59,483 bases of DNA, taken from Bdellovibrionales bacterium (GTDB lineage: Bacteria; Bdellovibrionota; UBA1018; CAIMNF01). A model generated the notes under the pieces. It ran no database searches and had not been told where the DNA came from. It saw nothing but the letters and a program-made list of their open reading frames with translations. The translations under genes and the position numbers were made by a program. This document shows positions 26,646 through 54,736 of the stretch, piece after piece. The stretch covers positions 1 to 59,483 of the forward strand of contig JBEIKL010000001.1 in assembly GCA_040379745.1 (NCBI GenBank). Reading direction: 5' to 3'. The first letter of the stretch is position 1. Each line of letters starts with the position of its first letter.

Positions 26646-26678
26646 GCGGGTTGCTCAAGGGGATCCCGAGGAGTGACT

Positions 26679-38370: not shown

Positions 38371-39673
38371 AAGTTACCCCCAGTCTGATTCGGTCCAGAG
38401 CGCGAAGATCGCCCAGGAATTCGGCTCCCCGATCGGACGAATTGAATCGTCCCGCATTGATCATGTCTCCACCCAAAATGGTGCTCCAGTTCGCAGTCCA
38501 TTGTTTTTTCCAGTCCAGGGCGATCCAATCGCCCGAGACCGCGTATTCGTGAAGAAAACGGGCGGTGATTTCATCCAGTTCGATGGTGAGCTGGGTCGCA
38601 TTCCGGAAAAGGATACGCGAACTGAACAGGTTTTGTTCCGAGTTCGGATTCGCATTCGGCCCGATATCGGCTCCGACTCCGCCAAACGAAAAAACCTGGG
38701 CGAGACGGAAAGAACCGAACTTCACCCACGGAGTCAGGTGGTTCGTAGCGCCCAGTGCAGTGACCGTATAATCGGATGGCAGGGAGCTCTCGGCGATGAT
38801 CTCGTCGCGGATCACCGATAGGCCAAGGCGGGTGGATTCACCGATCTCGGCACTGAGATCCGTGGAGTACACGGCATGGGAAAGGATTCTCGGGTGCAGA
38901 TCCACCACAATCTGATCGAGATTGATGTTCAGTGCCGCCTGAAGAGCCACGGGGAAATAATTCAACGGAAGATAACCCGCTGTTACGCGGATGTGGAATG
39001 GCGCCAGACTCTTCCTGCTTTCAATCGAGCCGAGTAGACTGGGTCTCAACAGGAGTTTGCCGAGTGAGGGAAGAGTCAAACGGTAACCCATCGGAGTCGG
39101 GCGACTGAGCAACTCGTAGGTCTGAGGTCCTGAGCTGACTGAATGCGGGTGATAGAACTGGAACTGATCGTTCTCAATGATCACGTTCGGAGTCGACTCC
39201 GGAATCATCAGATAGGAAGCGAACAGGTCAAAACGGATCGAATCATTTTCGGAAGAAAGGAACAGTCCGGTCAAGCCTTGAGAACTGGGACGGAGTCGAT
39301 CCCAGGAATTCAGTGGGTTCAGGATGCCGGTGTTCCAGATCTCATCGCCCTCACTCCAGTTGATCCACTTTCTTCCGATCGAGAACTGAAGCGGAGAGCT
39401 CGCTTCAAAAAAACGATAATGGAAATTTTTCGAAGTCAGTGCATTCGCTTTCGGGTGCGAGGGGTTGAATCGGAACTGAAGATCGTATTCCATTTGTTCC
39501 GACTGGCCATCCACTTCCGCCCGAATGATGGGAAAGAAGGAAGGCTTGGCTACTTCACGGTAAAATTGCGATTCAGCTCCAAGTCGCAAGTTTGCAGCAT
39601 GAACGGCTGGACCGTTCAGGTAGCAAATCGCTCCAATCAACGAGAAGAGTAGAATCGACATAGTGCGCCGCAT
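38360..39673 (-). CDS. hypothetical outer-membrane beta-barrel-like protein
   Basis: I chose the ATG at 39673 (MRRTMSILLFSLIGAICYLNGPAVHA signal peptide). Alternating hydrophobic/aromatic strand pattern and a C-terminal RIRLGVTYAL. Confidence 0.5.
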   Translation of the reverse strand: MRRTMSILLFSLIGAICYLNGPAVHAANLRLGAESQFYREVAKPSFFPIIRAEVDGQSEQMEYDLQFRFNPSHPKANALTSKNFHYRFFEASSPLQFSIGRKWINWSEGDEIWNTGILNPLNSWDRLRPSSQGLTGLFLSSENDSIRFDLFASYLMIPESTPNVIIENDQFQFYHPHSVSSGPQTYELLSRPTPMGYRLTLPSLGKLLLRPSLLGSIESRKSLAPFHIRVTAGYLPLNYFPVALQAALNINLDQIVVDLHPRILSHAVYSTDLSAEIGESTRLGLSVIRDEIIAESSLPSDYTVTALGATNHLTPWVKFGSFRLAQVFSFGGVGADIGPNANPNSEQNLFSSRILFRNATQLTIELDEITARFLHEYAVSGDWIALDWKKQWTANWSTILGGDMINAGRFNSSDRGAEFLGDLRALDRIRLGVTYAL

Positions 39674-39678
39674 GAAAC

Positions 39679-39723
39679 CATACTTTGATGGATCAGTCAA
39701 AGTATGATGTGTTAAAACACATC
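39679..39723. promoter_or_regulatory. two abutting perfect palindromes in a 52-nt divergent intergenic region; operator-like
   Basis: CATACTTTGA-tggatcag-TCAAAGTATG (39679-39706) and GATGTGTT-aa-AACACATC (39706-39723). The second ends 3 nt before the ATG at 39726. Confidence 0.4.
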
Positions 39724-39725
39724 AA

Positions 39726-42332
39726 ATGGACCGATTTTTGGACAAAATCTTGAGTGATATTGATGGTCTAGACCCGAAGGCTTCCTTAGTGCTCGGGTCG
39801 GGATTTGTCCGCGAGGAATGGAAAACCCTTTGTTTTAAAAAGGGTTATTCTCTCACTGGTTCAGCCATCCAGTCCATTCGGCAAATCGCAGTGAATTTGG
39901 TGCCAGAGTCGAAAGATCGGATTCTGGAAACCCACGCACGAGTTGAACTTTTGCGTCAGGAATTCAAGAAAGAATTACTTCGGGATGCGCTTCCTTTGCT
40001 CACTCGCCACCGTTCGCGTCCTTCTTATTTTGAAAAACTCGATCAGACCTTGCAGCAGGGACGAATGAACTTTGCCCATGCCGAAGAGTCCGAAGTCATT
40101 GAAAGCCAGTTGGTCGAAAAAACGGGGGATCTTCGCAAAAGGGAGGAGTTCTTTCTCCTGAACCGTTACTGGCAACAGTTCCTGATTCGAAACGAACTCT
40201 GGGACGAAGCCCGACTTTATGAAACCGCAGTGGAGCGACTGGCCTCCGGCGATGGAAAACTTTTCCCTCTTTATTATCGGGTCGATCACCTGCGTGAAAA
40301 ACCCCGGATCGAATGGTTCTGGTCCGAGTTGTCCCGTTACGCTGAAATCCGATCGGTGTCCTCGCTGGAAATCATCCGGGAAATCTATCCATCCCTTCAT
40401 CCGGGTGAGGGGTTGTACTTCACCCGAAAACGCGCGCACTCGCTGGAAGATGCGGCGAACTTCCTTCTGGATGAGGTCGTGGTGGATCCCGATCATCGTA
40501 TTGTGGTCATTGAGGACGTACCGGTGATTCGTCGGACCCTTCAGCGGGTCGCTTCCCAGCGCGGTCTCTTTCTCATGGATTCCCGCGATCCGACCTTGGT
40601 TTCCCGCAGTGAGGCGGTCAAGCTCGCGATTCTCGATCTAGAGCTTGTGGCGAGGAATTTTTCCCGCGCATCAGTCTTGGAGTGGTTACGCCAGTTCGTT
40701 CCGGCTTCGGGCGAACAACGCAAGAAAATCGTCGACGGCGCCATCGTTCAGGGGCTCGCATCCTATGAGCGTGTACCGGCCGTTCATTTCCAACTTCGCA
40801 GGGTTTTTGACCGTTATCCATCGCGGCTCAGTCTTGTTCAGCTGGAAAAGGCGATCCTCGAATCGATCCGCATCCATGAGCTTCCGGTTTGGACCAATCG
40901 GGTGATCCTGAGGTTGTTCGATGAGTGGAATAAGTCACTCCGTCAGATCGGCATGCATCGCATGCGCAAGCCCCTGCGTTTCTGGCACGAGCAATTGCGT
41001 GAACGGCTGAAGCAGGTGAACCCGGTCATTGATCCGACCAAGAACCGGAAGGGGCTTCGCATTCACCGGGTCGATCAGTGTCCGAGCCTGCTGTTGCATC
41101 CGGAAAATGTGAAAATCCATTTTTTCGGAATATCCAATTCTTTTTTCGAATCCAAGGAATCACAGGGAGAGTGGTTCAGTGTGCGCGATCAGGAAATCCT
41201 TTCTGGAGAATTCGGATGGCTTTCTTCGCTTGATCGGAGCGATCAGAACCGCAAATCCTTCGATCTGTGGAACCTGAACGAAGGTTCGGTGTTCTGGGAA
41301 TTCGAATACGATTCAAGCGGTGCTGAAACTGAAGGTTTCGATTTCACACTGGGAGACCAGAATCGCTATCCGCTTCAGTTGGTCGGAGCGCATCCCCGCA
41401 TGATTCCATCGTGGAAAGGTACGACCCCGGTTCCGATGGAAGTGAAAAACCTGCGTCTCCCTGTGCGAGCGGAAGGCGAAAAGAATTCCTGGCCGTTTTC
41501 CTTTCTCAATGCCTACGGAAACTGTCCCTTCATCGCCTATTCCCAGCAATTGCTTCGCATTCAGGATGAACGCGATGTGGAGGTTGAGCTCGCCGCCGAC
41601 CGTTTCGGAACCCTCCTGCATTCGGCACTCGAGGAGATCTCGAAAAATCCATCCATCGCAATCGAAGAGGCGTTCGAGATCGCTTGGAAAAAGACGCCGA
41701 CCACTGCTTGGGAATGGAATGAACGCTGGTATCAGGCCACTCGCGCCCGGGTCCTGAAAACGCTGCAAACTTTCGCCGCCGATGAAATCGAGTACCGAGC
41801 ACGTTCCGGAACCGATCTGCTGGAATCCGAAAAGGAAGTGGAAGTCGAATTGTCCGGACTTCCGTTGAGAGGGCGAATCGATCGAATCGATCGTCATGAC
41901 GATGGTCTTGTGGTCATGGATTACAAGACGGGTGGGGGATCGGTCGACGGAACCAAGGCGATCGAGATCGGAAAGAACCTCCAGCTCGGGTTGTATGCCC
42001 TTGCGGTCAGGAAGTTGCTGGGAGAAGAGGTGATCACCGCCCAGTACGTGAAGATTGACGAAACCGGTGTGAACCGCAATTCCGGCTTCCTGTTCAGTCG
42101 CTGGAACAAGGGAAAAAAGGCCGATCCGGTGGAAAAACCCGTTTCAACGGCTCGATCGGTCAGCAAATCCCTTTTTACCGTCGAACCGGAGGAGATCTGG
42201 CAGAAAGTCGAAACAAGGGTCGACAGCCTGGCTCAGTCCATTCGTGAAGGGGATTATTCTCCTAAGCCAGCCGATCCGAAAGATTGCGCAGAATGTCGCT
42301 ACCAGGCTGTTTGTGGAGAATCGCGGCGTTAA
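39726..42332 (+). CDS. AddB-like PD-(D/E)XK nuclease with a 4-Cys iron-sulfur staple and an inactive helicase-like N-terminal region
   Basis: Nuclease motif RGRIDRIDRHDDGLVVMDYKTG. The first cluster Cys is in NAYGNCPFIAYSQQLL and the C-terminal CxxCx5C is in DCAECRYQAVC. I saw no Walker A motif. Confidence 0.7.
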   Translation: MDRFLDKILSDIDGLDPKASLVLGSGFVREEWKTLCFKKGYSLTGSAIQSIRQIAVNLVPESKDRILETHARVELLRQEFKKELLRDALPLLTRHRSRPSYFEKLDQTLQQGRMNFAHAEESEVIESQLVEKTGDLRKREEFFLLNRYWQQFLIRNELWDEARLYETAVERLASGDGKLFPLYYRVDHLREKPRIEWFWSELSRYAEIRSVSSLEIIREIYPSLHPGEGLYFTRKRAHSLEDAANFLLDEVVVDPDHRIVVIEDVPVIRRTLQRVASQRGLFLMDSRDPTLVSRSEAVKLAILDLELVARNFSRASVLEWLRQFVPASGEQRKKIVDGAIVQGLASYERVPAVHFQLRRVFDRYPSRLSLVQLEKAILESIRIHELPVWTNRVILRLFDEWNKSLRQIGMHRMRKPLRFWHEQLRERLKQVNPVIDPTKNRKGLRIHRVDQCPSLLLHPENVKIHFFGISNSFFESKESQGEWFSVRDQEILSGEFGWLSSLDRSDQNRKSFDLWNLNEGSVFWEFEYDSSGAETEGFDFTLGDQNRYPLQLVGAHPRMIPSWKGTTPVPMEVKNLRLPVRAEGEKNSWPFSFLNAYGNCPFIAYSQQLLRIQDERDVEVELAADRFGTLLHSALEEISKNPSIAIEEAFEIAWKKTPTTAWEWNERWYQATRARVLKTLQTFAADEIEYRARSGTDLLESEKEVEVELSGLPLRGRIDRIDRHDDGLVVMDYKTGGGSVDGTKAIEIGKNLQLGLYALAVRKLLGEEVITAQYVKIDETGVNRNSGFLFSRWNKGKKADPVEKPVSTARSVSKSLFTVEPEEIWQKVETRVDSLAQSIREGDYSPKPADPKDCAECRYQAVCGESRR

Positions 42333-42378
42333 AACCTCGTGCGGGCTCAAAAAAAATCATGTTACACTGAAGGGGAAA

Positions 42379-44022
42379 ATGTGGAAAACATTGCGCTCCA
42401 AGGTATTCGGTTTTCTCTCCTTCCTGATCCTGGTCAGCATTGCCGGCGTTGGCGTCAGCTTCTGGATCACGCAGAAACTCAATGAGCGCACGACTGAAGT
42501 CAATTTGCGCACTTTTCCCATTCAGAAAAACCTGATCCAACTCAACGCCGACACCGAAATTCTCAAACGCGAGATGGACCGCAGTCTCGGACAGGCCCAC
42601 TGGAATAACGGTTTCTGGAAGCCGAAGAGGATTCCGTCATGGGTGATGGAATCCCATCGAGACACTTTGGAAAAATTCAAGCCTACTGATTTCATCTCCG
42701 ACTCCTGGAAGGAATGGCACCACCGAATGCTCTTCCTGCATGAACAGTTGGAACAACTTTCCGAACAGACCTATCTGGCCCTGATCGAGGAAAATCAGTT
42801 AAAAGCAGCCGAACTCGGATCCCGATGGAACACGTCCCTCGAAACCCTTCAGAAGGAAATCGACTGGGCAAAGCGCCAGATCGAAGAGGAAACCCGTTCT
42901 TCATTCAAGAAAGTGCAGGAAGAAGTGAAGGACCTTCGCTTCGCACTTCAAATCCTGTTGCTGGTGGTGATCAGTGTCGCACTTCTGATGTTGTGGATGG
43001 GAGAGCGCGCGCTCCGCCCCATCGATCATCTTCGGAAAATGGTGAAACAGGTCACTGAGCGTGGAGCCCTGACCATGGAAGCGAAAGCGAGCCTTCCTTT
43101 GGCATCCATTCTTCACAAGGATGAGGTGAGCGAGTTGGCCCGCGAGTTCCATCAGATGGCGGTCAGTCTTCTCGAGCGGGAAAAAATGATCGAATCGCAA
43201 AAGAACCGTCTCGAGGAGCAGAACAAAATGCTTCTGCAGATGAGCGAATTGCAGAAACGTCTCCAGGAGGCCGAACATCTTGCCGGAATCGGACGCCTTT
43301 CCGCGCAGGTCGCCCATGAAGTCGGAAATCCACTGCATTCCATCGGACTGGAAGCGGAATTGGCCATCGATCTTTTGCAGGAAATGCAGGCCAAGGAAAC
43401 CGATTCCGCCAAAGCGATTCACCTTCGCCAGTCGCTTCAGTCGATCCTGGCCAGCGTGGAACGATTGAAGAACATCACCATGAATTACCTGCGCATCTCC
43501 AAGGGCAGAATGCAAACCAAACACGTGAACATTTCCGAAGTGATTGAATCGACCCTCGCGACTTATGCGAACTCCATTCAACAGGCAGGCGCCCGTATCC
43601 GCTGGTTTTATCCGGAGAACTTCAAGAACGAGGAAAGGCTCGTGGTCAATGTCGATCCTGCGTTACTCGAGCAGGCCTTTGGAAACCTGATCCGCAATTC
43701 CCTTCAGGCAATGGCCGATGTTCGCGAAGGACGGATTGACATCCAAGTCAGTCTTACCGATCAGGAAACACTGATGGTTCAATTCTTCGACAACGGAAAG
43801 GGGATCGTTTCTTCCGATCGGGAAAACATTTTCAAGCCGTTCTTCACGACGAAGGCGGATGGTACCGGCCTCGGACTTTCTTTTGTGAAAAAAGTTTTCA
43901 CTGATCACGGCGGTTCATTCGTCCTCCGCGATTCCAACAAAGAAGGCACCTTGTTCGAGGGCGTCCTGCCCTTGAGTACCCTGGCGCTTGAAAAACCGGT
44001 TGAAAGCGGGGCAATGGCATGA
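42379..44022 (+). CDS. sensor histidine kinase (2 TM, periplasmic loop, HAMP-like, HisKA, HATPase)
   Basis: I chose the ATG at 42379 (AAGGGGA upstream). H-box SAQVAHEVGNPLHSI, N/G boxes FDNGKGI and GTGLGLSFVKKV. Confidence 0.85.
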   Translation: MWKTLRSKVFGFLSFLILVSIAGVGVSFWITQKLNERTTEVNLRTFPIQKNLIQLNADTEILKREMDRSLGQAHWNNGFWKPKRIPSWVMESHRDTLEKFKPTDFISDSWKEWHHRMLFLHEQLEQLSEQTYLALIEENQLKAAELGSRWNTSLETLQKEIDWAKRQIEEETRSSFKKVQEEVKDLRFALQILLLVVISVALLMLWMGERALRPIDHLRKMVKQVTERGALTMEAKASLPLASILHKDEVSELAREFHQMAVSLLEREKMIESQKNRLEEQNKMLLQMSELQKRLQEAEHLAGIGRLSAQVAHEVGNPLHSIGLEAELAIDLLQEMQAKETDSAKAIHLRQSLQSILASVERLKNITMNYLRISKGRMQTKHVNISEVIESTLATYANSIQQAGARIRWFYPENFKNEERLVVNVDPALLEQAFGNLIRNSLQAMADVREGRIDIQVSLTDQETLMVQFFDNGKGIVSSDRENIFKPFFTTKADGTGLGLSFVKKVFTDHGGSFVLRDSNKEGTLFEGVLPLSTLALEKPVESGAMA

Positions 44023-45347
44023 AAATCCTGGTCGTGGATGATGATCCGCAATCGCTTTCCTCCACCGGTCGCATCCTGGAACACGCCGGTCATGAAGTGG
44101 TGTACGCCTCTTCGGGCGACGAGGCTTTGGGTGTTCTGGATCGGATTTCACCGGTAATGGTCATCACCGATGTGCGCATGCCAGGCATGAACGGAATGCA
44201 GTTCGTCGAGGCTTATCAGAAAAAAGGGTTTCAAATTCCGTTCGTGATCATGACCGCGTTCGGTGAAGTGCAGGATGCGGTGTGGGCGATGAAAATGGGC
44301 GCTGTCGATTTCCTGTTGAAGCCATTTTCGAAGCAGGACCTTTGCAAGGCCGTCGATCAGGTGCTGGTCCGAACCCGCAAAACGGATCGTGGAACCGTGC
44401 TCGAGTTGCAGGACAAAAGCACGATGATCGGTTCGTCCAAGACCATGCAAAAACTGAGAACCCATATCAGCCAAGTGGCGACAACGGACGCCTCTGTGTT
44501 GGTACTCGGTGAGAGTGGAACTGGAAAAGAGCTGGTTTCACAGATGATTCATGATCAGAGTGTGCGCTCGAAAAAGCCGTTCATCGCGGTGAATTGCGCG
44601 GCCATTCCGGAAAACCTCATGGAGAGCGAACTCTTCGGTTATGAGCGCGGGGCTTTTTCTGGTGCCGATCATTCACGTGCAGGGCTGATTGAAGCCGCGG
44701 ATGGTGGAACGCTCTTGCTGGATGAAATCGGTGACATGCCTCTTTCCTTGCAACCGAAACTCCTGAGGGTGTTGGAAACGCAAACTCTTCGACGCTTGGG
44801 ATCCGTACAGGAGCGCAAGCTGAATGTCCGCTTCATTGCAGCGACTCATCAGAATTTGCTGGAGAGGGTGAGGCAGGGTTTGTTCCGGCAAGATCTTTAT
44901 TATCGCTTGGAAGTCATGCCGCTGAATGTTCCATCCCTTAGGGAGCATCCTGAAGACATCCCCGAGCTGATCCAATTCTATCTTGGCAGGTTTTCCGCCG
45001 AACACTTTAAAGTCATCTCCGGAATCGAATCGGATGCGCAAGCAATGCTCATGAGTCATCCGTGGCCCGGAAATGTGCGGGAACTTTCGAATGTCCTGGA
45101 AAGGGCAGTAGTGTTGAATTCCAGCGGCCGGATTGCTTGCGCAGACCTGCCGATCCATATTTCACCGTCCACTGGCAATGGCTCCGAAATCACGATTCCC
45201 CTTGGAACCAGCCTCAAGGAAATCGAAGACCTTTTGATCCAGAAAACGCTGGATCTGACCAACGGGGACCGGGCACAGGCCGCCAGGATGCTGGGAGTGA
45301 ATGAACGGACGGTTTATCGCTGGATCAATCGATCCAAAGAAGATTGA
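44019..45347 (+). CDS. sigma-54-dependent response regulator, NtrC family (REC-AAA+-HTH)
   Basis: ATGA overlap with the kinase gene. REC block MVITDVRMPGMNG. AAA+ motifs VLGESGTGKELVSQMIH and ESELFGYERGAFSGA. HTH RAQAARMLGVNERTVYRWI. Confidence 0.9.
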   Translation: MKILVVDDDPQSLSSTGRILEHAGHEVVYASSGDEALGVLDRISPVMVITDVRMPGMNGMQFVEAYQKKGFQIPFVIMTAFGEVQDAVWAMKMGAVDFLLKPFSKQDLCKAVDQVLVRTRKTDRGTVLELQDKSTMIGSSKTMQKLRTHISQVATTDASVLVLGESGTGKELVSQMIHDQSVRSKKPFIAVNCAAIPENLMESELFGYERGAFSGADHSRAGLIEAADGGTLLLDEIGDMPLSLQPKLLRVLETQTLRRLGSVQERKLNVRFIAATHQNLLERVRQGLFRQDLYYRLEVMPLNVPSLREHPEDIPELIQFYLGRFSAEHFKVISGIESDAQAMLMSHPWPGNVRELSNVLERAVVLNSSGRIACADLPIHISPSTGNGSEITIPLGTSLKEIEDLLIQKTLDLTNGDRAQAARMLGVNERTVYRWINRSKED

Positions 45348-45903
45348 TCTTCCAGGAGCGGATCTGATCGTCTCCGCCCGGAAGGATGGTCGCATGGATT
45401 TCCATTCTCAGGTTGCGGGACAAGTGGTAGCAGAATCCTCGAAAAACTTCGAGATACAGTGAACAGAGTTCGGAGTGATCGATCGGGGAAGCCAGCCAGT
45501 AGAATGAGCAGCTGTTTGCCGTTTTCCTTTCGAGAATGAAAGGATCGGAATGCTGGAGATTCCCTGTTTTCAGGCTCGAAATCGCCAGAAATGCATCATG
45601 TGGATGGTCGATGTTTGCTTGGGGCCACTCTTTTTCGGCAAGGCTCTTTCCGTATTGCCAGCTGGCGCTTTGCAATTGGTTGAATTGGCTTGCCGGTGAA
45701 TCCGATATCGACAACGTTTCCAAGAGCGTTCGTTGCTGATGATTGAAAAGTTCAGCCCATCCCACTGAACCGGTCAGAATCGACTTCTCTTCGACCGGTG
45801 CGTTCCAGAGCATGCTCAGAGAAATGAAATTTCGAAGCTGGTTCTCTTTGCGAGTTTCTTCAATCAGGGGGTAAGGCGAATTCCAGTGTGACTCAGGCAA
45901 CAT
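45325..45903 (-). CDS. hypothetical cytoplasmic protein (192 aa)
   Basis: It starts 9 nt after the stop of the 899-aa gene, in the same operon. No signal peptide. The C-terminal part (CSFYWLASPIDHSELCSLYLEVFRGFCYHL...) has only a vague V4R-like look. Confidence 0.5.
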   Translation of the reverse strand: MLPESHWNSPYPLIEETRKENQLRNFISLSMLWNAPVEEKSILTGSVGWAELFNHQQRTLLETLSISDSPASQFNQLQSASWQYGKSLAEKEWPQANIDHPHDAFLAISSLKTGNLQHSDPFILERKTANSCSFYWLASPIDHSELCSLYLEVFRGFCYHLSRNLRMEIHATILPGGDDQIRSWKINLLWID

Positions 45904-45912
45904 GATTCATCC

Positions 45913-48612
45913 TCACTGCAAAAGCCCCATTTTTAAAGCGGATGTGTTTTCCAGGGTTTCAATCAGGCACGCGCTGAGAAGATGTTTCAGTTCTTTTTTT
46001 CTCATTTTTTCCGCGTGGTAGGCCTTGATGATCTGATTGCTGACGATCCGGATCTGTTCCGGATTTTTAGGAATGCGGATCTCAAGACAGATTTCCTTCC
46101 AGGTCGGTTCGGCAACGATGTTTCTCATTACCACCAGTTTATCCAAAGTCTGTTCACGAATCCAGCTGTCCTGAATGTGCAAGAATTGGGTGAGTCCCTT
46201 GTTGGTCGCCAGAACGATACCGGGTGTCGGTTGCTGAACCGCACTGATGCTGGAGATCGCCTGGTGTTCAGGCATGGTCGGAGTGAAGCGGATCAACGGG
46301 TGCTGATCGATGCGGCACAGATCACCATCTTGAAGGACAAACTTCTCCAGCTGGTGTTGGAGGATTTGGCCGTCTTCCGACACCATGGAGAACAGGGCCG
46401 CTTGTTCCTTTCGCTGCTGATAAAGCACTTGAGCCGCGAGAACGAAAATTTTCGATTTCAAGGAAGCCGATTCCTGTTTTTTGCTTTCCAAGAGGGTCAG
46501 AGCTTCACCCGGCTTGGACGGCACCAGTGAGATCAGTCGCTCCTCGAGAGGACTCAGTGGAATCAACGAAGCCTGAAGATGGGATTCCTTCAGGTATCGG
46601 CAGATGTGTTTCGGAATCGGGATCGATTTGACATCGGATTCCTTCAGCATCCAGTTTCCTTTTTTGCGTTCCGCGGAATACTGCAACCAATCCCGCGTGA
46701 GGTGCGAACGGATCAGTGACTGAAGCGGTACGGACCAGCTGCCATCCTGCGGGTAGATGATGAACACGTTTCCTTTTTTCATCGGATCATTCGGCAGATC
46801 GGCTTCTTCAGCCGTGAAGATCTCGTTTCCTTGTGAGCCGGTCTCAGACCAGAGGAAGTACCGGGGCGGAGAGGAAATCATCGGATTACCCGGTGTGGAG
46901 CTGGAAAGGTTCCGGATGAGTTCCACCCAGGAAACCATTCTGACGATGGCCAGTTCTCCCAGTGGGGTGGAGCTCCGCTTCAGGGATTCGATCTGATCAA
47001 CCATCTCATCGTCAGCCGGGTTGAACCAGTGTTGTTCCCATTCGCGTTGTTCGATCGGGCTGATCCGGGAATGAATCTGGAACGGTTCGTGAGGGAAGCT
47101 CTGATCGGGTTTCTTCAGTAGCGAGAAAATGCGATCAAACAAGAGTTGTACATCCGTGGAGTTGTTCACGGCTCCGTACGTCTTGATCATGATCGGACGA
47201 TGGCCTTTCCGTTCTTCCATCTGGTTCTCTCGTTGGAAAACATAAAGCGCTTTGGGAAGATCTCGCTTGATCGAATCCTGGGAACATTGGAGTGCGCTCA
47301 GGTCGGCGATGAAGAGGAGCTTTGCCTGATTGAGGATGAAGTGAAGGGCGTTCTTTCCCGAAGTCTCATCCAGGATTTCTTCCCGTGCCCAGACGAGGAT
47401 GCCGCCCTGTCTTAGTTTGTCGAGGGACTGGCACGCCTGATAGATTCCGCGCGTGGTGTTCTGATCCTTCACTTTTTTCAGCACCGAATGCTGATCAATC
47501 TGCTTCCGGAGAGCCTGTCCTGCCAGGGTTCTTGACTGCGTCCGGATCGGATTCTCCTCGGCAATGATGGAAATCTCGCAGGAGGAAATCGCTTCGATCT
47601 GCTGGATGATGTTCTGTTTTCCGCAATGGGTGAGTTGAAGCGAGGATTGGTGGTCCATGCTCATTTCGAGACTGCTTCCACGGATCCAGAGAGGAAGTGT
47701 TTTCGGTTCGCTCCAAAGATAACGGATTTCACAGAAAAGAAGCTCGAACGAAAGCGGTTCGAATCCGATCCATTCGATGTGTTCGGGGGAATGATCCATC
47801 ATGGAACCATCGCGAAGGGTGGGGCAGAAGCCGAATACCGATCGCTCGGACTGACGGATCAGCTGATGGCTTTGCATGGATTTCCAAAGATAGCGGTAAA
47901 AATACTTGCTGTAACGATCTCGTTCGCCAAGCGTATCGGCTGAAATTTTCCGTGCTTTGACCAACAGCCATTCCTTGATTTTCTCAAGCCCCGGATCTTC
48001 TGAAGTCGCGGATTCGATCAGGTTCCAAAGTTGGTTCTGATGGTTGGCGGTGAGGTTGTACCAGGAATAGAAATTCTGCTGGATCAATTGGCTGGTCGAA
48101 GTCTGAAGATTCACGAAAGAACTCATCGCCTTGTTGATGGCGGATGTGAGGTTCTTCAGGTCCATCATCACGAATTTTTCCTTGGACCACGATTTCACCA
48201 ATAGGGCTTTTCCCAATTGCACGAATGCGATCTGCCGGAACAGGTGTTTCAATGCTTCCTGTGCTTGGGGGGAGCGGTCTTGTGCGATGAATTCCTTCAG
48301 TTTTTCCTGCGGATTTTCCGGTTCCGGTTGCTTGGAGAGTTCAGCGAGGAAGCGACCGATGCTTTCCCTTCTGGACGGGTTGAGTTTGCAAAGTTGATCC
48401 GCGTTTTTCAGGAGTTCCTGAACCACGTCCTCGATGAATTGATTGAGCTGTTTTTCAAGAAAATATGCCGGGGTGACGGGTGCGGAAGGGGGAATGGACT
48501 GACTGGAAATCGGATCAATCGGGGCGCGTTCAACCTTGCCAGAATTGAGTTTGGACTCGATTCTGTCTCTCTGGAGCAAGTTTGTTAAGTTGAAGCCAGG
48601 TTGTTTGTTCAT
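45913..48612 (-). CDS. hypothetical cytoplasmic protein (899 aa) with no recognisable catalytic motif
   Basis: Long uninterrupted ORF with no signal peptide, TM segment or P-loop. One block, DKLRQGGILVWAREEILDETSGKNALHFILNQAKLLFIADLSAL, resembles the post-catalytic region of N6-adenine DNA methyltransferases. There is no (D/N/S)PP(Y/F/W) motif and no SAM-binding loop. Confidence 0.65.
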   Translation of the reverse strand: MNKQPGFNLTNLLQRDRIESKLNSGKVERAPIDPISSQSIPPSAPVTPAYFLEKQLNQFIEDVVQELLKNADQLCKLNPSRRESIGRFLAELSKQPEPENPQEKLKEFIAQDRSPQAQEALKHLFRQIAFVQLGKALLVKSWSKEKFVMMDLKNLTSAINKAMSSFVNLQTSTSQLIQQNFYSWYNLTANHQNQLWNLIESATSEDPGLEKIKEWLLVKARKISADTLGERDRYSKYFYRYLWKSMQSHQLIRQSERSVFGFCPTLRDGSMMDHSPEHIEWIGFEPLSFELLFCEIRYLWSEPKTLPLWIRGSSLEMSMDHQSSLQLTHCGKQNIIQQIEAISSCEISIIAEENPIRTQSRTLAGQALRKQIDQHSVLKKVKDQNTTRGIYQACQSLDKLRQGGILVWAREEILDETSGKNALHFILNQAKLLFIADLSALQCSQDSIKRDLPKALYVFQRENQMEERKGHRPIMIKTYGAVNNSTDVQLLFDRIFSLLKKPDQSFPHEPFQIHSRISPIEQREWEQHWFNPADDEMVDQIESLKRSSTPLGELAIVRMVSWVELIRNLSSSTPGNPMISSPPRYFLWSETGSQGNEIFTAEEADLPNDPMKKGNVFIIYPQDGSWSVPLQSLIRSHLTRDWLQYSAERKKGNWMLKESDVKSIPIPKHICRYLKESHLQASLIPLSPLEERLISLVPSKPGEALTLLESKKQESASLKSKIFVLAAQVLYQQRKEQAALFSMVSEDGQILQHQLEKFVLQDGDLCRIDQHPLIRFTPTMPEHQAISSISAVQQPTPGIVLATNKGLTQFLHIQDSWIREQTLDKLVVMRNIVAEPTWKEICLEIRIPKNPEQIRIVSNQIIKAYHAEKMRKKELKHLLSACLIETLENTSALKMGLLQ

Positions 48613-48778
48613 TGTCGAAGACTCAATCCCCTATGTCGTCGCCAGCCCAATTTTTGCCGGAAAAATCTTATATCAGCACCTAGTCAATGAATCTAGTTTT
48701 AATTTTCCATAGAAATTACGGGTACTTGTACTCGAATAAAACTCTACAGTTTTTTGAATTTAGGGCCGATCAGAGGGT

Positions 48779-49180
48779 ATGTCAAAGGCCCTTTCCAGAG
48801 TGCGAGCATTGGTATCTGAAATCGACGCAATCCAGACCGGAGGACGCAAGTACTCCTCGTCATCCGTCCCACTGATGAAAGCGGTCGAGACGGTAAAGGC
48901 GCTCCAGTCCGAACAGGCTTCTGGCGCATCCGGTTATATGCCACCGATGGGTGCGGAAGCGGGTAATGTCTATCAGTTGAATTCCGCTCCGGTCGCCACT
49001 CCCGTGGTTCCCGCTACGCCGGAAGGGAAGATCCTGATCCAGATGACCGGCAAGATTGCCGTTCAACTCCAGATGGACGATACAGATGAAATCGTTGAGG
49101 TTCGTCAACTCGGGGAAATGATCGAGATTCGCTTTAATGACGGAAAAGCCATTCACTTACCGCTGAAAAACGTGGCATAG
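48779..49180 (+). CDS. hypothetical small protein (133 aa)
   Basis: AGAGGG lies 5 nt upstream of the ATG. Helical N-terminus, Pro/Ala/Val linker and a beta-rich C-terminus. It ends 7 nt before rsmD. Confidence 0.5.
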   Translation: MSKALSRVRALVSEIDAIQTGGRKYSSSSVPLMKAVETVKALQSEQASGASGYMPPMGAEAGNVYQLNSAPVATPVVPATPEGKILIQMTGKIAVQLQMDDTDEIVEVRQLGEMIEIRFNDGKAIHLPLKNVA

Positions 49181-50242: not shown

Positions 50243-51435
50243 GATTCACCCATCGCGTGAGCAGCTTGCGCGAAAGCGCCACACTCAAGATCAACGCCAT
50301 TGCCAATCAGCTCAAGCAAGAAGGCAAGTCGATCATCAATCTCACCGCCGGTGAACCTGATTTCCCTGTTTTTGACGAGGCGAAAAAGGCCGTGATCGAA
50401 GCCTTGGAAAAAAACCTTTCCAAATACACCCCGACTCCGGGAATTCCCGAGTTGCGTGAATTGGTGGCGAAAAAAACAAACGCCCAACAACCGGCGCTGG
50501 TCGCAAATCCGTGGAAGGCTTCGAACGTGATGGTCACCAATGGAGGGAAACAAGCCCTGTTCGATGTGATTCTCACGTTGATCGAAAAGGGTGACGAGGT
50601 GCTGATTCCTTCCCCGTTCTGGTTGAGCTATCCGGAAATGGTGAGTGTGGCGGAAGGGGAGTCCCGATTCATCCCAACCACTTTCGAATCACGTTACAAG
50701 ATCACTGCCGACTCACTGGAAAAGGCGATCACCGCGAAAACCAGAATGATGATCCTGAACTCACCGAGCAATCCCACCGGTGCCATGTACAGTCGCGAAG
50801 AATTACAGGCTCTGGGCACCGTTCTTGAAAAGCATCCCCAGGTTTGGATCGTCAGTGACGAGATCTATGATCTGATTGATTATACTACGGGGGGCTGGAC
50901 CTCTTTTCTCGAAGCGAACCCGTCCTTGCGTAATCGCACGATCACCGTCAATGGAATGTCGAAAAGCGGAGCGATGACCGGTTGGCGCGTGGGTTGGTCC
51001 GTCAGTCCCGAATCCGTAACACCTAAGCTGAATGCGCTTCAGGGGCACTCAACCTCCGGAATTTGCTCGTTATCTCAGGCGGCGGCCGTAGCGACCTTGA
51101 AATTGCCCCGTGAACGCTTTGCCTACCAGCTCAAAGAATATTTAAATAGGCGCAATTTAGCGTTGGAAGTGCTCAGGAAATCAGGGAAAATCAGGGTAGA
51201 CGAGCCTCAGGGTGCATTCTATCTCTTCATGGATCTCTCCGGGGTGTTCGTCGGTAACAAAGCCGGGCAGGATGCGGATGGATTTGTACAGGATCTTCTC
51301 AGGGATGAACAGGTTGCGGTCGTTTCAGGGGTCGATTTCGGCGCTCCGAAATGCGTTCGCATCAGCTTTGCGACCGACCTCGACACGCTCCTTGCCGGTT
51401 GCCGCAAAATCGTCGATTACTGCGATCGCTATTAG
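50239..51435 (+). CDS. class I PLP-dependent (aspartate-type) aminotransferase
   Basis: LNSPSNPTGAMY and the PLP-Lys block NGMSKSGAMTGWRVGW. Confidence 0.88.
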   Translation: MRFTHRVSSLRESATLKINAIANQLKQEGKSIINLTAGEPDFPVFDEAKKAVIEALEKNLSKYTPTPGIPELRELVAKKTNAQQPALVANPWKASNVMVTNGGKQALFDVILTLIEKGDEVLIPSPFWLSYPEMVSVAEGESRFIPTTFESRYKITADSLEKAITAKTRMMILNSPSNPTGAMYSREELQALGTVLEKHPQVWIVSDEIYDLIDYTTGGWTSFLEANPSLRNRTITVNGMSKSGAMTGWRVGWSVSPESVTPKLNALQGHSTSGICSLSQAAAVATLKLPRERFAYQLKEYLNRRNLALEVLRKSGKIRVDEPQGAFYLFMDLSGVFVGNKAGQDADGFVQDLLRDEQVAVVSGVDFGAPKCVRISFATDLDTLLAGCRKIVDYCDRY

Positions 51436-52411
51436 TTCACAGCTCCTGATTCAAGGATGCGGACTTTCTCCGTTCGACGTCAACAACGAGACCGATCGGA
51501 ACACAATGATTGCAACGATCCGGAGCAATCTCAGCTCTTTCAACTGTGCTTCCGCAGTTGAAAAGTCCGAATCCCTCTTCAATTCCCGTTATGTGACCAA
51601 TGAAATCCGAATGCTTCATGCTTCTTCTTATGGTTGCCTTGCAGGCGTCCAGCTGATTCCGCTCATGACCGCGGTTGGAAGTGGGGATTACACAGTGGTC
51701 GCTGGTGTGCCTCCCACGACAAAATTCTTCAATACCATGGCTCAGATTTTTCCTTCCAGTGCCATTGTCGATGCCAAGACCCAAAGCTTACAGAAAATGC
51801 AGGATGTGCTTCAGAGCATGATTGTTCCAGGTGCCGTGCTTTCCGATTTCGATTCGAACATCATCAATCCCTACAATACGGGATCACTGCTTTACCGCGA
51901 CCGAACCGATGATGCCAACACGCTTCTGATGTTTTCCTCCATGGCGCTTTTTGGAACCCTGTTGAGCCGGTATGGCGATCCGGATCCATCCAGTTACGAC
52001 CAACGGAAAAAGATCCTGGACACTTGGTCGAACGAGACCGCAATCGCCAACGACGTCACCAAAAACGCCTGTTCCTTCGCTTCCAGTGTCTTGAACATGT
52101 ATGATGGTGTTTCCGTGGTTTCCACGGTTTCGTCCGGAGCCTTGGGAACAGCGCTACTGGCAATGCAGGCCGCGCTCGATACGATCATCTCCGCAGGCAT
52201 GCAGAAATGCAGGAATGGCCAAGTGGGAATCGGTGACGGCGATGACGATCCGACCAATGACCGTTATGGCGAAACCCGTTGTAACAATGCAAAGTCAAGG
52301 CTCCGTTACCGCAACGCCTGTCATGAGACCGATCGTGATCCTCAGCCGGTGCGGACTTTCGTGCATGGAATGATGATTGCCATCGATGGAACCTGGGCGG
52401 GAGTTCCATGA
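51392..52411 (+). CDS. hypothetical lipoprotein; the start is uncertain
   Basis: A TTG at 51392 would give (M)PVAAKSSITAIAISSQLLIQG|C, a 22-aa lipoprotein-type signal, but it overlaps the aminotransferase 3' end by 44 nt. The first ATG after that gene is at 51506 and gives no signal peptide. ATGA overlap with the downstream barrel gene. Confidence 0.45.
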   Translation: MPVAAKSSITAIAISSQLLIQGCGLSPFDVNNETDRNTMIATIRSNLSSFNCASAVEKSESLFNSRYVTNEIRMLHASSYGCLAGVQLIPLMTAVGSGDYTVVAGVPPTTKFFNTMAQIFPSSAIVDAKTQSLQKMQDVLQSMIVPGAVLSDFDSNIINPYNTGSLLYRDRTDDANTLLMFSSMALFGTLLSRYGDPDPSSYDQRKKILDTWSNETAIANDVTKNACSFASSVLNMYDGVSVVSTVSSGALGTALLAMQAALDTIISAGMQKCRNGQVGIGDGDDDPTNDRYGETRCNNAKSRLRYRNACHETDRDPQPVRTFVHGMMIAIDGTWAGVP

Positions 52412-53496
52412 TTCGACTTTTTGCCCTGATGAGTTTGGTTTTTTCCGTACTTCAGGCCCCGTCGGTCGATGCAAGGGAGCAGGGTACGAGCTTGGTCCGT
52501 CAAGCGCGATCGAAGGCGATGGGTGGTATCGGGGTCGGAATGGCCGATGATGATTTCGCCATGTTCAATAATCCAGCAGGTCTTGCTGGCAACGAATTGA
52601 GTGGATGGCGTCCGCTCTATTTCCAGTTGGAAGGAACCCTGGATGATTATCTTTATTTTGCTGAGCTCACCGACGTCACTTCCGGATTTACACTCGATAA
52701 ATTGAATGCCCTCATGGGCAAGGACATCGGAGGGCGAACCGGTGGAATGACCATGTTCATGCTTCCGCACTTCCATCTCGCTTATCTCGCCGACACGCAG
52801 GTTTCATTCGGTCAGTACAATCCGGTGAACCCCATTTATCAGATCGGTGCCATGATCACTCACGGAGTTCAGTTGGGCGCTGCTTGGAGTTACAAGCGAG
52901 GACGGAGGGCGCCGGATGAATTTCGCTGGGGTTTTGCTGGCAAGTTCCTTTTTCGCAAGGGGGGATTCTATGAGATCGGAACCACGTCGATTCTTCAGTC
53001 CGCCAGTGATCCGCAAACCTATTTCGCTGGTGTGATCGGTGAGTTCGGAACAGCATTGGGTGGCGATCTCGGAGCCCAGTATGTACGCAAGATCGACTAC
53101 GATACCACCTTTTACCTTGGATCATCCCTGCAGGACATCGCCGGGACCCGTTTTCCCGATATCCGCACGCAATCGATTCCGATGGCTTTGAATGCGGGGT
53201 TCGGTTTCAAGCGGAATCTGAATGGTTCCTCATTTTCCATCGGAATGGACTATCGGAACATTCTTCTTTCCACTGCGTTATCGAACAAGCTCCACTTTGG
53301 AGGGGAATTCGGGCTAGGCAAGGTTTTTTTCCTCCGCGCGGGTTTGAATCAGCTTCGAGCGAGTTATGGAGCGGAATTTAATTTCTGGCTCCTCAAGATC
53401 GGTGCAGCCAGTTTCGGTGAGGAGTTGGATTCAGCCTATGGTATCTCCTCAACCCGTAGATTCGTATTCGATATGAGTCTCGGTATTGCAATCTGA
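52408..53496 (+). CDS. outer-membrane beta-barrel protein with a FadL/TraF_2/PorV-like N-terminal motif
   Basis: Signal peptide MIRLFALMSLVFSVLQAPSVDA. The AMGGIGVGMADDDFAMFNNPAGLAG motif and an alternating strand pattern. Confidence 0.5.
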   Translation: MIRLFALMSLVFSVLQAPSVDAREQGTSLVRQARSKAMGGIGVGMADDDFAMFNNPAGLAGNELSGWRPLYFQLEGTLDDYLYFAELTDVTSGFTLDKLNALMGKDIGGRTGGMTMFMLPHFHLAYLADTQVSFGQYNPVNPIYQIGAMITHGVQLGAAWSYKRGRRAPDEFRWGFAGKFLFRKGGFYEIGTTSILQSASDPQTYFAGVIGEFGTALGGDLGAQYVRKIDYDTTFYLGSSLQDIAGTRFPDIRTQSIPMALNAGFGFKRNLNGSSFSIGMDYRNILLSTALSNKLHFGGEFGLGKVFFLRAGLNQLRASYGAEFNFWLLKIGAASFGEELDSAYGISSTRRFVFDMSLGIAI

Positions 53497-54729: not shown

Positions 54730-54736
54730 TCGTGCC

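What the first reader, a model, noticed from the sequence alone, without database searches (positions are those of the whole stretch)
45325..48612. Cytoplasmic orphan operon: 899-aa protein with a methyltransferase-like remnant plus a 192-aa partner
The two genes are 9 nt apart and neither product has a signal peptide, TM segment or NTPase motif.

The large protein has a helical N-terminal third and a central block, DKLRQGGILVWAREEILDETSGKNALHFILNQAKLLFIADLSAL. That block resembles the LKxGG...P...L.....R..L......I..LP region following the catalytic motif of gamma-class N6-adenine DNA methyltransferases and type IIG enzymes. A long C-terminal region is organised like a target-recognition part. 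However, neither a (D/N/S)PP(Y/F/W) motif nor a SAM-binding Gly loop is present.

It could be a catalytically dead DNA-recognition scaffold working with the small partner, for example as a defence, regulatory or epigenetic-reader module. It could also be something entirely new. It sits between a two-component system and core genes, in an AT-rich-flanked slot.
Basis: inference. Interest (0 to 1): 0.7.

Follow-up and report, generated by a model that had tools for sequence, protein, structure and literature searches.

The report
Conserved inactive DNA-methyltransferase relic with partner
The 899-aa protein is a vertically inherited relative of DNA adenine methyltransferases found across Bdellovibrionota; it keeps the whole enzyme architecture but has lost the cofactor-binding and catalytic motifs, and it sits next to a small protein with a ligand-sensor fold, so it is probably a repurposed non-enzymatic protein, not a defence gene or an orphan.

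Summary
In detail: an 899-aa ORF (45913-48612, -) and a 192-aa ORF (45325-45903, -) lie 9 nt apart. Neither has a TM segment, a real NTPase motif, NPPY or a Gly-rich SAM loop.

No Pfam, NCBIfam, PADLOC or PDB sequence profile hits either protein. However, the AlphaFold model (pLDDT 82) matches gamma-class N6-adenine DNA methyltransferases with fused specificity domains (M.BseCI, CamA, BpuSI, BREX PglX, type I M; E down to 6e-11). Distant relatives still score as Eco57I/N6_Mtase/TaqI_C.

The motifs form a decay series. Motif I goes DPATGSG, DPTMGSG, NPIAGAG, then CPTLRDG here. Motif IV goes NPPY, CPPE, HFPD, then EE here. The substituted residues are invariant, and the core is the most conserved domain.

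The pair is not an orphan, not mobile and not defence-like. There are 177 clusters, all named ones from Bdellovibrionota. The gene always lies divergent from rsmD-coaD-aminotransferase, and its divergence tracks the housekeeping genes.

The partner (pLDDT 88) has a V4R/Bet3/H-NOX ligand-binding fold. It is co-conserved with the large gene. In distant clades it is coupled to a ChaN-like gene, and sometimes to the adjacent sigma-54 two-component operon.

Most likely function: a non-catalytic, possibly DNA-binding regulatory scaffold. This is inferred, not shown.

The parts
45913..48612 (-). Gene for the 899-aa pseudo-methyltransferase (LARGE)
   Evidence: ORF; 62 full-length homologues; AF2 pLDDT 82; Foldseek hits to gamma-class N6A DNA MTases with TRDs
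47863..48471 (-). N-terminal all-helical domain (residues 48-250); the region best conserved with the distant Eco57I-type relatives
   Evidence: DSSP on the model; hmmsearch domain 1 alignments to P0183, P0191 and P0209; coordinates checked
47053..47862 (-). Rossmann-type methyltransferase core (residues 251-520) with substituted motifs; the most conserved domain (0.74)
47806..47823 (-). Former motif I (SAM loop), now PTLRDG (residues 264-269); P264, R267 and G269 are invariant, and R267 replaces the first Gly of DPxxGxG
   Evidence: alignment to FDPTMGSGNFL of P0191; conserved in about 60 cluster representatives; invariant columns; translation
47758..47766 (-). Motif II remnant GFE (residues 283-285) with invariant E285, aligned to GSE/GCD of the relatives
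47542..47562 (-). Position where motif IV (NPPY) is expected: AEENPIR (residues 351-357) at the end of predicted strand beta4 (345-352); E352 and E353 are invariant
   Evidence: The exact residue equivalence is ambiguous, but no NPPY-like motif exists anywhere in the protein
47290..47421 (-).
45916..47052 (-). C-terminal specificity-type module (residues 521-899): TRD1, long helices, smaller TRD2-like beta region, long terminal helix. It includes the TaqI_C-like motif LIRS..W...E.KKG.W.L....KSIPIPK (46609-46728)
   Evidence: secondary structure; alignment to the TaqI_C region of P0209; Foldseek hits to fused M+S enzymes; invariant S636, W642, E648, W654, P665, P667
45325..45903 (-). Gene for the 192-aa partner with a V4R/Bet3/H-NOX-type fold
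   Evidence: ORF; homologues; homology to the 222-250-aa partners of distant loci; AF2 pLDDT 88, pTM 0.84; Foldseek
45454..45489 (-). Partner residues 139-150, SPIDHSELCSLY. This is the position of the C-x-H...C..H signature seen in distant clades (a putative Zn or ligand site); in this clade only C147 of it remains
   Evidence: V4R Zn-site precedent in PMC10933270
48757..48785 (-). Sigma-70-like promoter candidate (TTGACA-17-TAAATT) about 145 nt upstream of the LARGE start; a consensus match only
   Evidence: no Rfam element and no excess structure in the leader
42244..45347 (+). Adjacent histidine kinase (42244-44022) and NtrC-type sigma-54 response regulator (44019-45347). They are convergent, and the regulator's 3' end overlaps the partner's by 23 nt. 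This is a syntenic neighbour whose functional link is only inferred
   Evidence: Pfam; synteny; partner translationally coupled to the regulator in L034-L036

Best explanation
The 899-aa protein is a pseudo-methyltransferase. It is a vertically inherited descendant, found across Bdellovibrionota, of an orphan Eco57I/TaqI-type (gamma-class) N6-adenine DNA methyltransferase with a fused specificity module. It keeps the N-terminal helical domain, the Rossmann core and the TRD-helix-TRD-helix module. The SAM loop DPxxGxG has become (C/S/T)PTLRDG, with an invariant Arg in place of the first Gly. The catalytic NPPY is gone, and the predicted beta4 strand now ends in an invariant Glu-Glu. It therefore most likely no longer transfers methyl groups. 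The remodelled pocket is the most conserved part of the protein and the DNA-recognition architecture is retained, so the likeliest role is a non-catalytic DNA-binding or ligand-gated scaffold or regulator. The 192-aa product has the V4R/Bet3/H-NOX small-ligand-binding fold. In this clade it is co-transcribed with the large protein and probably translationally coupled to it. It most likely modulates the large protein or connects it to the adjacent sigma-54 two-component system. SHOWN: fold, remote homology, motif replacement and its conservation, phyletic spread, synteny, vertical inheritance, co-conservation of the pair. INFERRED: loss of SAM binding and catalysis, DNA binding, physical complex, regulatory role. 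Rough confidences: pseudo-MTase identity 0.85-0.9; non-catalytic 0.8; DNA-binding regulatory scaffold working with the partner 0.3-0.4.
For: Fold: the AF2 model (pLDDT 82) matches only gamma-class N6A DNA MTases with TRDs, namely type I M2S1 7eew (5.8e-11), M.BseCI, CamA, BpuSI, PglX/BrxX, HsdM and M.TaqI, and giant-virus fused M+S adenine MTases (2.9e-16). Homology: an exhaustive profile search links the family to P0209 (E 1e-15), P0183 (1.6e-26) and P0191 (1.4e-21), which score as Eco57I, N6_Mtase, MmeI_Mtase and, for P0209 only, TaqI_C in Pfam. Motifs: PTLRDG aligns with PTMGSG and KLRQGG with KLREGG. Decay series: P0209 has DPATGSG and NPPY; P0191 and P0183 have DPTMGSG and CPPE; P0216 has NPIAGAG and HFPD; the window has CPTLRDG and AEEN. 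The substituted motifs are conserved across about 60 divergent representatives, with invariant R267, E285, E352, E353, R410 and E411. The core is the most conserved domain. Core-gene status: all 36 GTDB loci are Bdellovibrionota; the gene order is conserved; even deep relatives sit next to rsmD-coaD-aminotransferase; LARGE identity tracks RsmD, CoaD and the aminotransferase (rho 0.85-0.91). Partner: homologous across clades and found near LARGE, usually directly downstream, in almost all loci with enough DNA, often with overlapping stop and start codons. Its model has pLDDT 88. Its Foldseek hits are H-NOX, Bet3/TRAPPC3 and BcsD, the same fold set that PMC10933270 describes as one ligand-binding fold.
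Against: There is no direct profile hit of the window protein to any MTase family. The assignment rests on a predicted structure and on transitive homology. Loss of SAM binding is inferred from sequence only, and the motif II acidic residue (E285) is still invariant, so a nucleoside-type ligand is not excluded. The residue-level placement of the lost motif IV is ambiguous. The two TRD-like regions are acidic (pI 4.9 and 5.7) and their loops are the least conserved parts, which is weak evidence against sequence-specific DNA binding. No heterocomplex could be modelled. In L030 and L034-L036 the partner is not co-oriented with LARGE, and in L034-L036 it is coupled to the response regulator and a ChaN-like gene. 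The partner's Foldseek scores are modest (E about 1e-3, TM 0.40-0.48) and it has no Pfam V4R or H-NOX hit.
Confidence: 0.55

Rival explanations
1. The partner's real functional unit is the neighbouring signalling module (histidine kinase, sigma-54 regulator and, in other clades, a ChaN-like protein), acting as a stand-alone V4R/H-NOX-type sensor for the kinase or regulator. Its co-transcription with the pseudo-methyltransferase in this clade is a secondary arrangement. This is not mutually exclusive with the best explanation.
For: H-NOX/V4R-type fold. V4R is the sensor domain of the bacterial PoxR protein, which from my own knowledge is an NtrC-family sigma-54 activator. In L034-L036 the partner overlaps the stop codon of the response regulator and is followed by ChaN. 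Partner-then-ChaN adjacency holds in 14 loci in both orientations. The C-x-H signature and ChaN are lost together at least twice.
Against: In most loci with enough DNA the partner directly follows LARGE on the same strand, often with 0-20 nt spacing or overlap. In the window the gap is 9 nt and the partner is convergent with the regulator. Deep relatives without the PTLRDG-type core (L041, L042, L044) also lack the partner.
Confidence: 0.25
2. The protein has been re-targeted to RNA or to a protein (for example the ribosome), or its remodelled acidic/basic pocket is a new catalytic or ligand-binding site. Under this view it is not a DNA binder.
For: It is invariably divergent from rsmD (a 16S rRNA MTase gene), even in the deepest relatives. 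The TRD-like regions are acidic with variable loops. The former active site carries invariant charged residues: R267, E285, E352, E353, R410 and E411 invariant, D268 and R357 nearly so.
Against: All structural neighbours are DNA adenine MTases with DNA-specificity domains. The TaqI_C-type motif is retained. Adjacency to rsmD-coaD may be nothing more than conserved gene order, which extends over more than 15 kb.
Confidence: 0.1
3. It is still an active DNA methyltransferase that uses non-canonical motifs.
For: The complete MTase and TRD architecture is retained. The motif II Glu (E285) is invariant. There is strong purifying selection on the core.
Against: There is no (D/N/S)PP(Y/F/W) anywhere and no GxG loop. 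An invariant Arg replaces the first Gly of the SAM loop, and Glu-Glu occupies the position expected for Asn-Pro. No MTase profile matches, even at E<=1.
Confidence: 0.07
4. It is a defence, anti-mobile-element or epigenetic-reader module (BREX-like, type IIG/IIL-like or a new system).
For: The structural relatives include PglX/BrxX, BpuSI and LlaBIII. It is a two-gene cassette with no annotation.
Against: No PADLOC hit. No nuclease, ATPase, PglZ or BrxC-type neighbour, and the neighbours are housekeeping genes. The position is fixed and divergence is vertical. No phage or plasmid copies. No tRNA or att-like repeats, and the GC is host-like.
Confidence: 0.03

Closest known systems
Orphan gamma-class N6-adenine DNA methyltransferases with a C-terminal TRD: CamA (C. 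difficile), M.BseCI, M.TaqI
   Same: Rossmann core followed by a target-recognition domain; Foldseek E 4e-10 to 1e-6; stand-alone, with no restriction partner; the retained KLRxGG (motif V/VI) region and the TaqI_C-type L..S..W...IP.P motif.
   Different: Those enzymes bind SAM and carry NPPY-type motif IV; this family has PTLRDG and EE instead. They are 390-580 aa, without the 200-residue N-terminal helical domain or the second TRD-like and helical extension.
BREX methyltransferase PglX/BrxX and type IIG/IIL enzymes (BpuSI, MmeI); Pfam Eco57I PF07669
   Same: Large single-chain architecture of helical domain, Eco57I-type MTase and TRD. The Foldseek alignments run over about 980-1030 columns with PglX (E 7e-9 to 7e-8) and 726 with BpuSI. 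Distant relatives of this family hit PF07669 and PF20473.
   Different: No BREX genes or PADLOC hit; no N-terminal nuclease (no strand before residue 259); catalytic motifs lost; chromosomal, syntenic and vertically inherited, not island-borne.
Type I M2S1 methyltransferases and fused M+S adenine methyltransferases of giant viruses
   Same: Best PDB hit is 7eew (5.8e-11) and best viral hits are at 3e-16 to 1e-11. The TRD, long helix, TRD, long helix layout resembles an S subunit fused to M.
   Different: No HsdR or HsdS neighbours; inactive motifs; the second TRD is small (about 85 residues).
Catalytically inactive methyltransferase-fold regulators (DNMT3L, METTL14, mitochondrial TFB-type factors); named from my own knowledge, not tested here
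   Same: The concept: an MTase fold kept under selection after loss of SAM or catalytic motifs, acting as a scaffold or nucleic-acid binder, often with a partner.
   Different: Unrelated lineages and substrates. I found no described bacterial, phylum-wide pseudo-enzyme derived from an R-M-type adenine MTase in five full-text searches.
V4R / Bet3 (TRAPPC3) / H-NOX / BcsD ligand-binding fold (for the 192-aa partner)
   Same: An N-terminal helical layer plus beta-beta-alpha-beta-beta. Foldseek hits to H-NOX, Bet3 and BcsD at E 1e-3 to 2e-2, TM 0.40-0.48, probability about 1, the same set grouped as one fold in PMC10933270. The distant-clade C-x-H...C..H signature sits where V4R proteins have a Zn site tethering the sheet to a helix.
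   Different: No Pfam V4R or H-NOX hit at E<=1 and no PDB profile hit. No conserved proximal His or YxSxR haem motif. Apart from C147, the Cys/His signature is lost in the window's clade.

Membership tests
Gamma-class N6-adenine DNA methyltransferase (Pfam Eco57I PF07669 / N6_Mtase PF02384) | Class I (Rossmann-like) MTase fold with a gamma-type arrangement plus a TRD | tested here: met
   AF2 model with pLDDT 82; Foldseek top 50 are all such enzymes; viral library likewise
Gamma-class N6-adenine DNA methyltransferase (Pfam Eco57I PF07669 / N6_Mtase PF02384) | Motif I SAM-binding loop (D/E/N)PxxGxG | tested here: not met
   The aligned position reads CPTLRDG, with R267 invariant in place of the first Gly
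Gamma-class N6-adenine DNA methyltransferase (Pfam Eco57I PF07669 / N6_Mtase PF02384) | Motif IV catalytic tetrapeptide (N/D/S)PP(Y/F/W) | tested here: not met
   No match anywhere in the protein; predicted beta4 ends in the invariant E352-E353
Gamma-class N6-adenine DNA methyltransferase (Pfam Eco57I PF07669 / N6_Mtase PF02384) | Profile HMM match at the curated threshold | tested here: not met
   0 Pfam and NCBIfam families at E<=1. Homology is only transitive, through P0183, P0191 and P0209
Gamma-class N6-adenine DNA methyltransferase (Pfam Eco57I PF07669 / N6_Mtase PF02384) | SAM binding and methyl transfer to DNA | not testable with these tools
   Needs biochemistry or methylome data
BREX (PglX/BrxX) | PglX encoded with BrxA/B/C, PglZ and BrxL-type genes | tested here: not met
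   No PADLOC hits; the neighbours are HK, RR, RsmD, CoaD and an aminotransferase
Type IIG/IIL restriction-modification (BpuSI, MmeI) | N-terminal PD-(D/E)XK nuclease domain fused to MTase-TRD | tested here: not met
   Residues 1-47 are disordered and 48-250 are all-helical, with no strand before residue 259; no nuclease family hit
Type I R-M methyltransferase (HsdM/HsdS) | Separate HsdS and HsdR genes in the locus | tested here: not met
   None in the window or in the 36 related loci
H-NOX haem sensor (partner) | Proximal His haem ligand and Y-x-S-x-R propionate-binding motif | tested here: not met
   No universally conserved His. Only W7, R10, W33, Q56, G85, W93, R126, P140, G156 and a few Leu reach 80% or more. 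No Pfam hit
V4R / Bet3 fold (partner) | Two-layer alpha/beta fold with an internal cavity and often a Cys-rich Zn site tethering the sheet to a helix | tested here: inconclusive
   Topology and Foldseek hits agree. A C-x-H...C..H signature is present in distant clades but, apart from C147, lost here. No PF02830 hit. The cavity was not examined because no coordinates were available

The most novel reading that the evidence does not exclude
The invariant charged cluster that replaced the SAM and NPPY site (R267, E285, E352, E353, R410 and E411 invariant; D268 and R357 nearly so) is a new functional pocket. Under this reading the protein is a neofunctionalised enzyme, or a ligand- or base-sensing, sequence-reading DNA protein, controlled by a V4R/H-NOX-type sensor subunit and wired to a sigma-54 two-component system. 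That would be a previously unrecognised chromosomal regulatory system specific to Bdellovibrionota, built by domesticating a restriction-modification-type methyltransferase.
Probability: 0.25. Interest if true: 0.8.

Novelty: new variant of a known kind. Interest (0 to 1): 0.55.

Why it matters
Bacterial DNA methyltransferases of the restriction-modification type are usually mobile, patchy and catalytically active. This one appears to have been fixed at a single chromosomal position in the ancestor of a whole phylum. It was stripped stepwise of catalysis and then of cofactor binding, with intermediates still extant, yet it has been kept under strong selection for its full 900-residue architecture, together with a sensor-fold partner. 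If confirmed, it would be a clear bacterial example of a domesticated pseudo-methyltransferase, analogous in concept to DNMT3L or METTL14. It would also mark an unknown core function in Bdellovibrionota, the phylum that includes predatory Bdellovibrio and Bacteriovorax. A practical consequence is that homology-based methylome or R-M annotation would wrongly call such genes 'DNA methylase'.

Tried and rejected
(1) Direct profile assignment: Pfam, NCBIfam and PADLOC at E<=1, and PDB sequence searches with a single sequence and with profiles, all gave nothing for either protein.

(2) Defence or mobile island: rejected.

(3) Sigma-54 control of the operon by the neighbouring NtrC-type regulator: there is no GG-N10-GC element upstream of LARGE, and window-wide matches equal chance (28 found against 26 expected).

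(4) Riboswitch or structured leader: no Rfam hit at E<=1, and the leader folds no better than shuffles (z = -0.01).

(5) NTPase in the partner: the ASWQYGKS regex hit was rejected because it lies in a helix and is not conserved.

(6) Haem-sensor (H-NOX) membership for the partner: rejected for lack of a conserved His or YxSxR.

(7) Naming a cultured organism or a published gene: two cluster look-ups returned only 'hypothetical protein' from MAGs, and five literature searches found nothing on this family.

(9) Residue-exact mapping of the lost motif IV: MAFFT and hmmalign place IIAEE against a relative-specific LEG segment, whereas spacing and predicted secondary structure favour IIAEENP against VCANPPY. 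This is unresolved.

Full report
**1. Observation**

The two ORFs are exactly as described: 45913-48612 (-), 899 aa, and 45325-45903 (-), 192 aa, separated by 9 nt. The quoted block is residues 398-441.

LARGE has no NPPY-like tetrapeptide, no GxGxG, no Walker A and no TM segment. The partner matches a loose Walker-A regex (ASWQYGKS), but the match lies inside a predicted helix and is not conserved.

The GC content of the two genes (0.51 and 0.49) equals that of the window (0.51). Only the upstream intergenic region is AT-rich (0.39). At the other end, the partner's 3' end overlaps the convergent response-regulator gene by 23 nt.

**2. No direct family assignment**

Pfam, NCBIfam and PADLOC at E<=1 return nothing for either protein. 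PDB sequence searches with single sequences and with profiles also return nothing.

**3. The large protein is a conserved family**

The word-index search gave 62 full-length homologues down to 28% identity, all unannotated. An exhaustive HMM search of 1.84 billion cluster representatives gave 177 hits.

The alignment (A1) shows 61 invariant columns spread along the whole length.

**4. Fold**

The AlphaFold2 model built on A1 is confident (pLDDT 82, pTM 0.60). Its layout is:

- a disordered N-terminus (residues 1-47)
- an all-helical domain (48-250)
- an alpha/beta core (about 251-520)
- a beta-rich domain (about 521-667)
- long helices (668-745)
- a second, smaller beta-rich region (about 746-850)
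- a long terminal helix

The top Foldseek hits against the PDB are exclusively gamma-class N6-adenine DNA methyltransferases with specificity domains:

- type I M2S1 7eew (5.8e-11)
- M.BseCI, CamA and BpuSI
- BREX PglX/BrxX (alignments of about 1000 columns)
- HsdM, M.TaqI and LlaBIII

The viral library gives giant-virus adenine MTases with fused M and S parts (E down to 2.9e-16).

**5. Remote homology and motif decay**

Among the weakest hits of the exhaustive search are proteins of about 900-1200 aa that Pfam recognises as Eco57I, N6_Mtase, MmeI_Mtase and TaqI_C (P0209, P0183, P0191).

HMM alignments put the family's fsPTLRDGs on FDPTMGSGNFL, and its LeKLRqGG.LiWaREe on LSKLREGGKLGFVT. The family's LqsLlRSqltrdWl...kkgaW.L...dlKsIPvPk aligns with the TaqI_C part of P0209.

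Direct inspection gives a graded series:

| Protein | Motif I | Motif II | Motif IV |
|---|---|---|---|
| P0209 | DPATGSG | GSE | NPPY |
| P0191 / P0183 | DPTMGSG | GCD | CPPE |
| P0216 | NPIAGAG | GCE | HFPD |
| Window family | CPTLRDG | GFE | AEEN(P)IR |

Across about 60 divergent representatives, the substituted motifs are themselves conserved: (S/T/C)PTLRDG, G(L/F)E, EE..(I/V)R and KLRPGG..WAREEPL. The MTase core is the most conserved domain (0.74, against 0.50-0.66 elsewhere). This is remodelling under selection, not decay.

One caveat applies. Automatic alignments gap out the NPPY strand and pair IIAEE with a relative-specific LEG segment. Spacing to KLRxGG and the predicted beta4 strand (345-352) favour IIAEENP against VCANPPY. 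Under either alignment the protein has no NPPY.

**6. Not an orphan, not an island**

A scan of GTDB species genomes returned 36 loci, 35 of them labelled Bdellovibrionales, Oligoflexia, Bacteriovoracaceae, Bdellovibrionota or unclassified 'Proteobacteria' MAGs. The one exception (L019, 'Nitrosovibrio') is probably mis-binned.

Gene order is conserved throughout: o362, aminotransferase, CoaD, RsmD and (p133) on one strand; then, divergently, LARGE and the partner; then, convergently, the NtrC-type regulator, the histidine kinase and an AddB-like gene.

Even very distant relatives (P0188, P0192, P0225, P0191) lie beside rsmD, and the first three directly beside rsmD-coaD-aminotransferase, so they are positional orthologues. 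The fully active-looking P0209 sits in a different context.

LARGE identity to the window protein correlates with that of RsmD (rho 0.91), CoaD (0.85) and the aminotransferase (0.87).

There are no phage or plasmid copies, no nearby tRNA and no att-like repeats.

**7. The partner**

Direct searches find only close homologues (52% identity or more). However, the 222-250-aa ORFs downstream of distant LARGE genes are homologous to it (pairwise E 2e-20 and 4e-6; profile hits 1e-54 to 1e-6). In most loci the partner starts within 0-20 nt of the LARGE stop, or overlaps it.

Its model is confident (pLDDT 88, pTM 0.84): five helices followed by beta-beta-alpha-beta-beta.

Foldseek returns H-NOX domains, Bet3/TRAPPC3 and BcsD (E 1e-3 to 2e-2, TM 0.40-0.48). 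A structural study groups this same set, together with the V4R domain of PoxR, as one ligand-binding fold. That fold often has a Zn site tethering the sheet to a helix, and the site is sometimes lost (PMC10933270).

No haem-type His or YxSxR motif is conserved.

**8. Wider neighbourhood logic**

In the distant clade (27-32% identity), a ChaN-like protein (PF04187) directly follows the partner in 14 loci. This holds whether the partner-ChaN pair is co-oriented with LARGE, or inverted and fused to the end of the HK-RR operon.

The partner's C139-x-H141 signature is present in 14 of 14 loci with ChaN and in 0 of 17 loci without it. L039 is an independent co-loss.

The window's clade has neither ChaN nor the C-x-H signature.

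Deep relatives whose core is not of the PTLRDG type lack a recognisable partner (L041, L042, L044). L043 has a divergent, assembly-split one followed by ChaN.

**9. Expression signals**

There is one sigma-70-like site (TTGACA-17-TAAATT, 48785..48757) about 145 nt upstream of the start. There is no sigma-54 element, no Rfam family and no unusual leader structure.

**10. Interpretation**

Shown:

- LARGE is a homologue of Eco57I/TaqI-type DNA adenine methyltransferases with a fused specificity module.
- It has lost both the canonical SAM loop and NPPY.
- It is vertically inherited and widely conserved in Bdellovibrionota.
- It is co-conserved with a V4R/H-NOX-fold protein.

Inferred:

- It no longer methylates.
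- It acts as a non-catalytic DNA-binding or ligand-gated scaffold.
- The partner modulates it or links it to the adjacent sigma-54 two-component system.

Weak counter-indications to DNA binding are the acidic, variable TRD-like regions. The invariant motif II Glu and the invariant charged cluster leave room for a new ligand or a new activity.

**11. Novelty and score**

I found no description of this family. All database names are 'hypothetical protein', and five literature searches were negative.

It is a new variant of a known kind: a domesticated pseudo-enzyme derived from an R-M-type methyltransferase. Interest is moderate to high (0.55). The evolutionary story is clean and testable, but the function remains inferred.

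Noticed in passing
window 45325-45347: The 3' ends of the partner gene (-) and the NtrC-type response-regulator gene (+) overlap convergently by 23 nt. Similar overlaps of 8-50 nt recur in related loci (L001, L002, L008, L009), leaving no room for an intergenic terminator and raising the possibility of transcriptional interference.
   Followed up: partly
L003 8430-10199; L034 8735-10678; 14 loci in all: A ChaN-like protein (PF04187, haem-binding/Tiki superfamily; 589 aa in L003, 647 aa in L034) directly follows the partner in every distant-clade locus except L039, in either orientation. It is absent from the window and from the window's clade. Its presence correlates perfectly (14/14 against 0/17) with a C-x-H signature in the partner.
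   Followed up: yes
window 48779-49180 (+): A 133-aa ORF (p133) lies divergent from LARGE and upstream of rsmD. It is conserved in the Bdellovibrionales-clade loci and has only a weak KfrB-domain hit (E 0.043). The LARGE promoter-like site overlaps its start.
   Followed up: partly
L019 (CALPVV020000129.1): A contig with 80% identity to LARGE and the same rsmD-coaD synteny is deposited in a MAG labelled 'Nitrosovibrio sp. Nv4'. It is probably a mis-binned Bdellovibrionales contig.
   Followed up: no
window 52408-53496 (+); also 51212-52411 and 53497-54765: Three ORFs of 360-420 aa have no Pfam hit. The 362-aa one (o362) is syntenic phylum-wide, downstream of the aminotransferase, in nearly all related loci. 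It is another conserved unknown.
   Followed up: partly
window 34873-38370 (-) and 38360-39700 (-): Large ORFs of 1165 aa and 446 aa next to the AddB-like PD-(D/E)XK gene have no Pfam family at E<=0.001. In L001 the corresponding position holds a 1088-aa RCC1-repeat protein.
   Followed up: no
window 26640-26655 (+): The best sigma-54-promoter-like match in the window is TGGCATGCGGGTTGCT (1 mismatch). The overall number of matches is at chance level.
   Followed up: no
L045 (P0209 contig): The only relative with fully intact MTase motifs (DPATGSG, NPPY, TaqI_C) is on a 5-kb contig, followed by a 151-aa ORF and a 162-aa P-loop protein. This context is unlike the rsmD-linked locus and may represent the mobile, active sister lineage.
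   Followed up: partly
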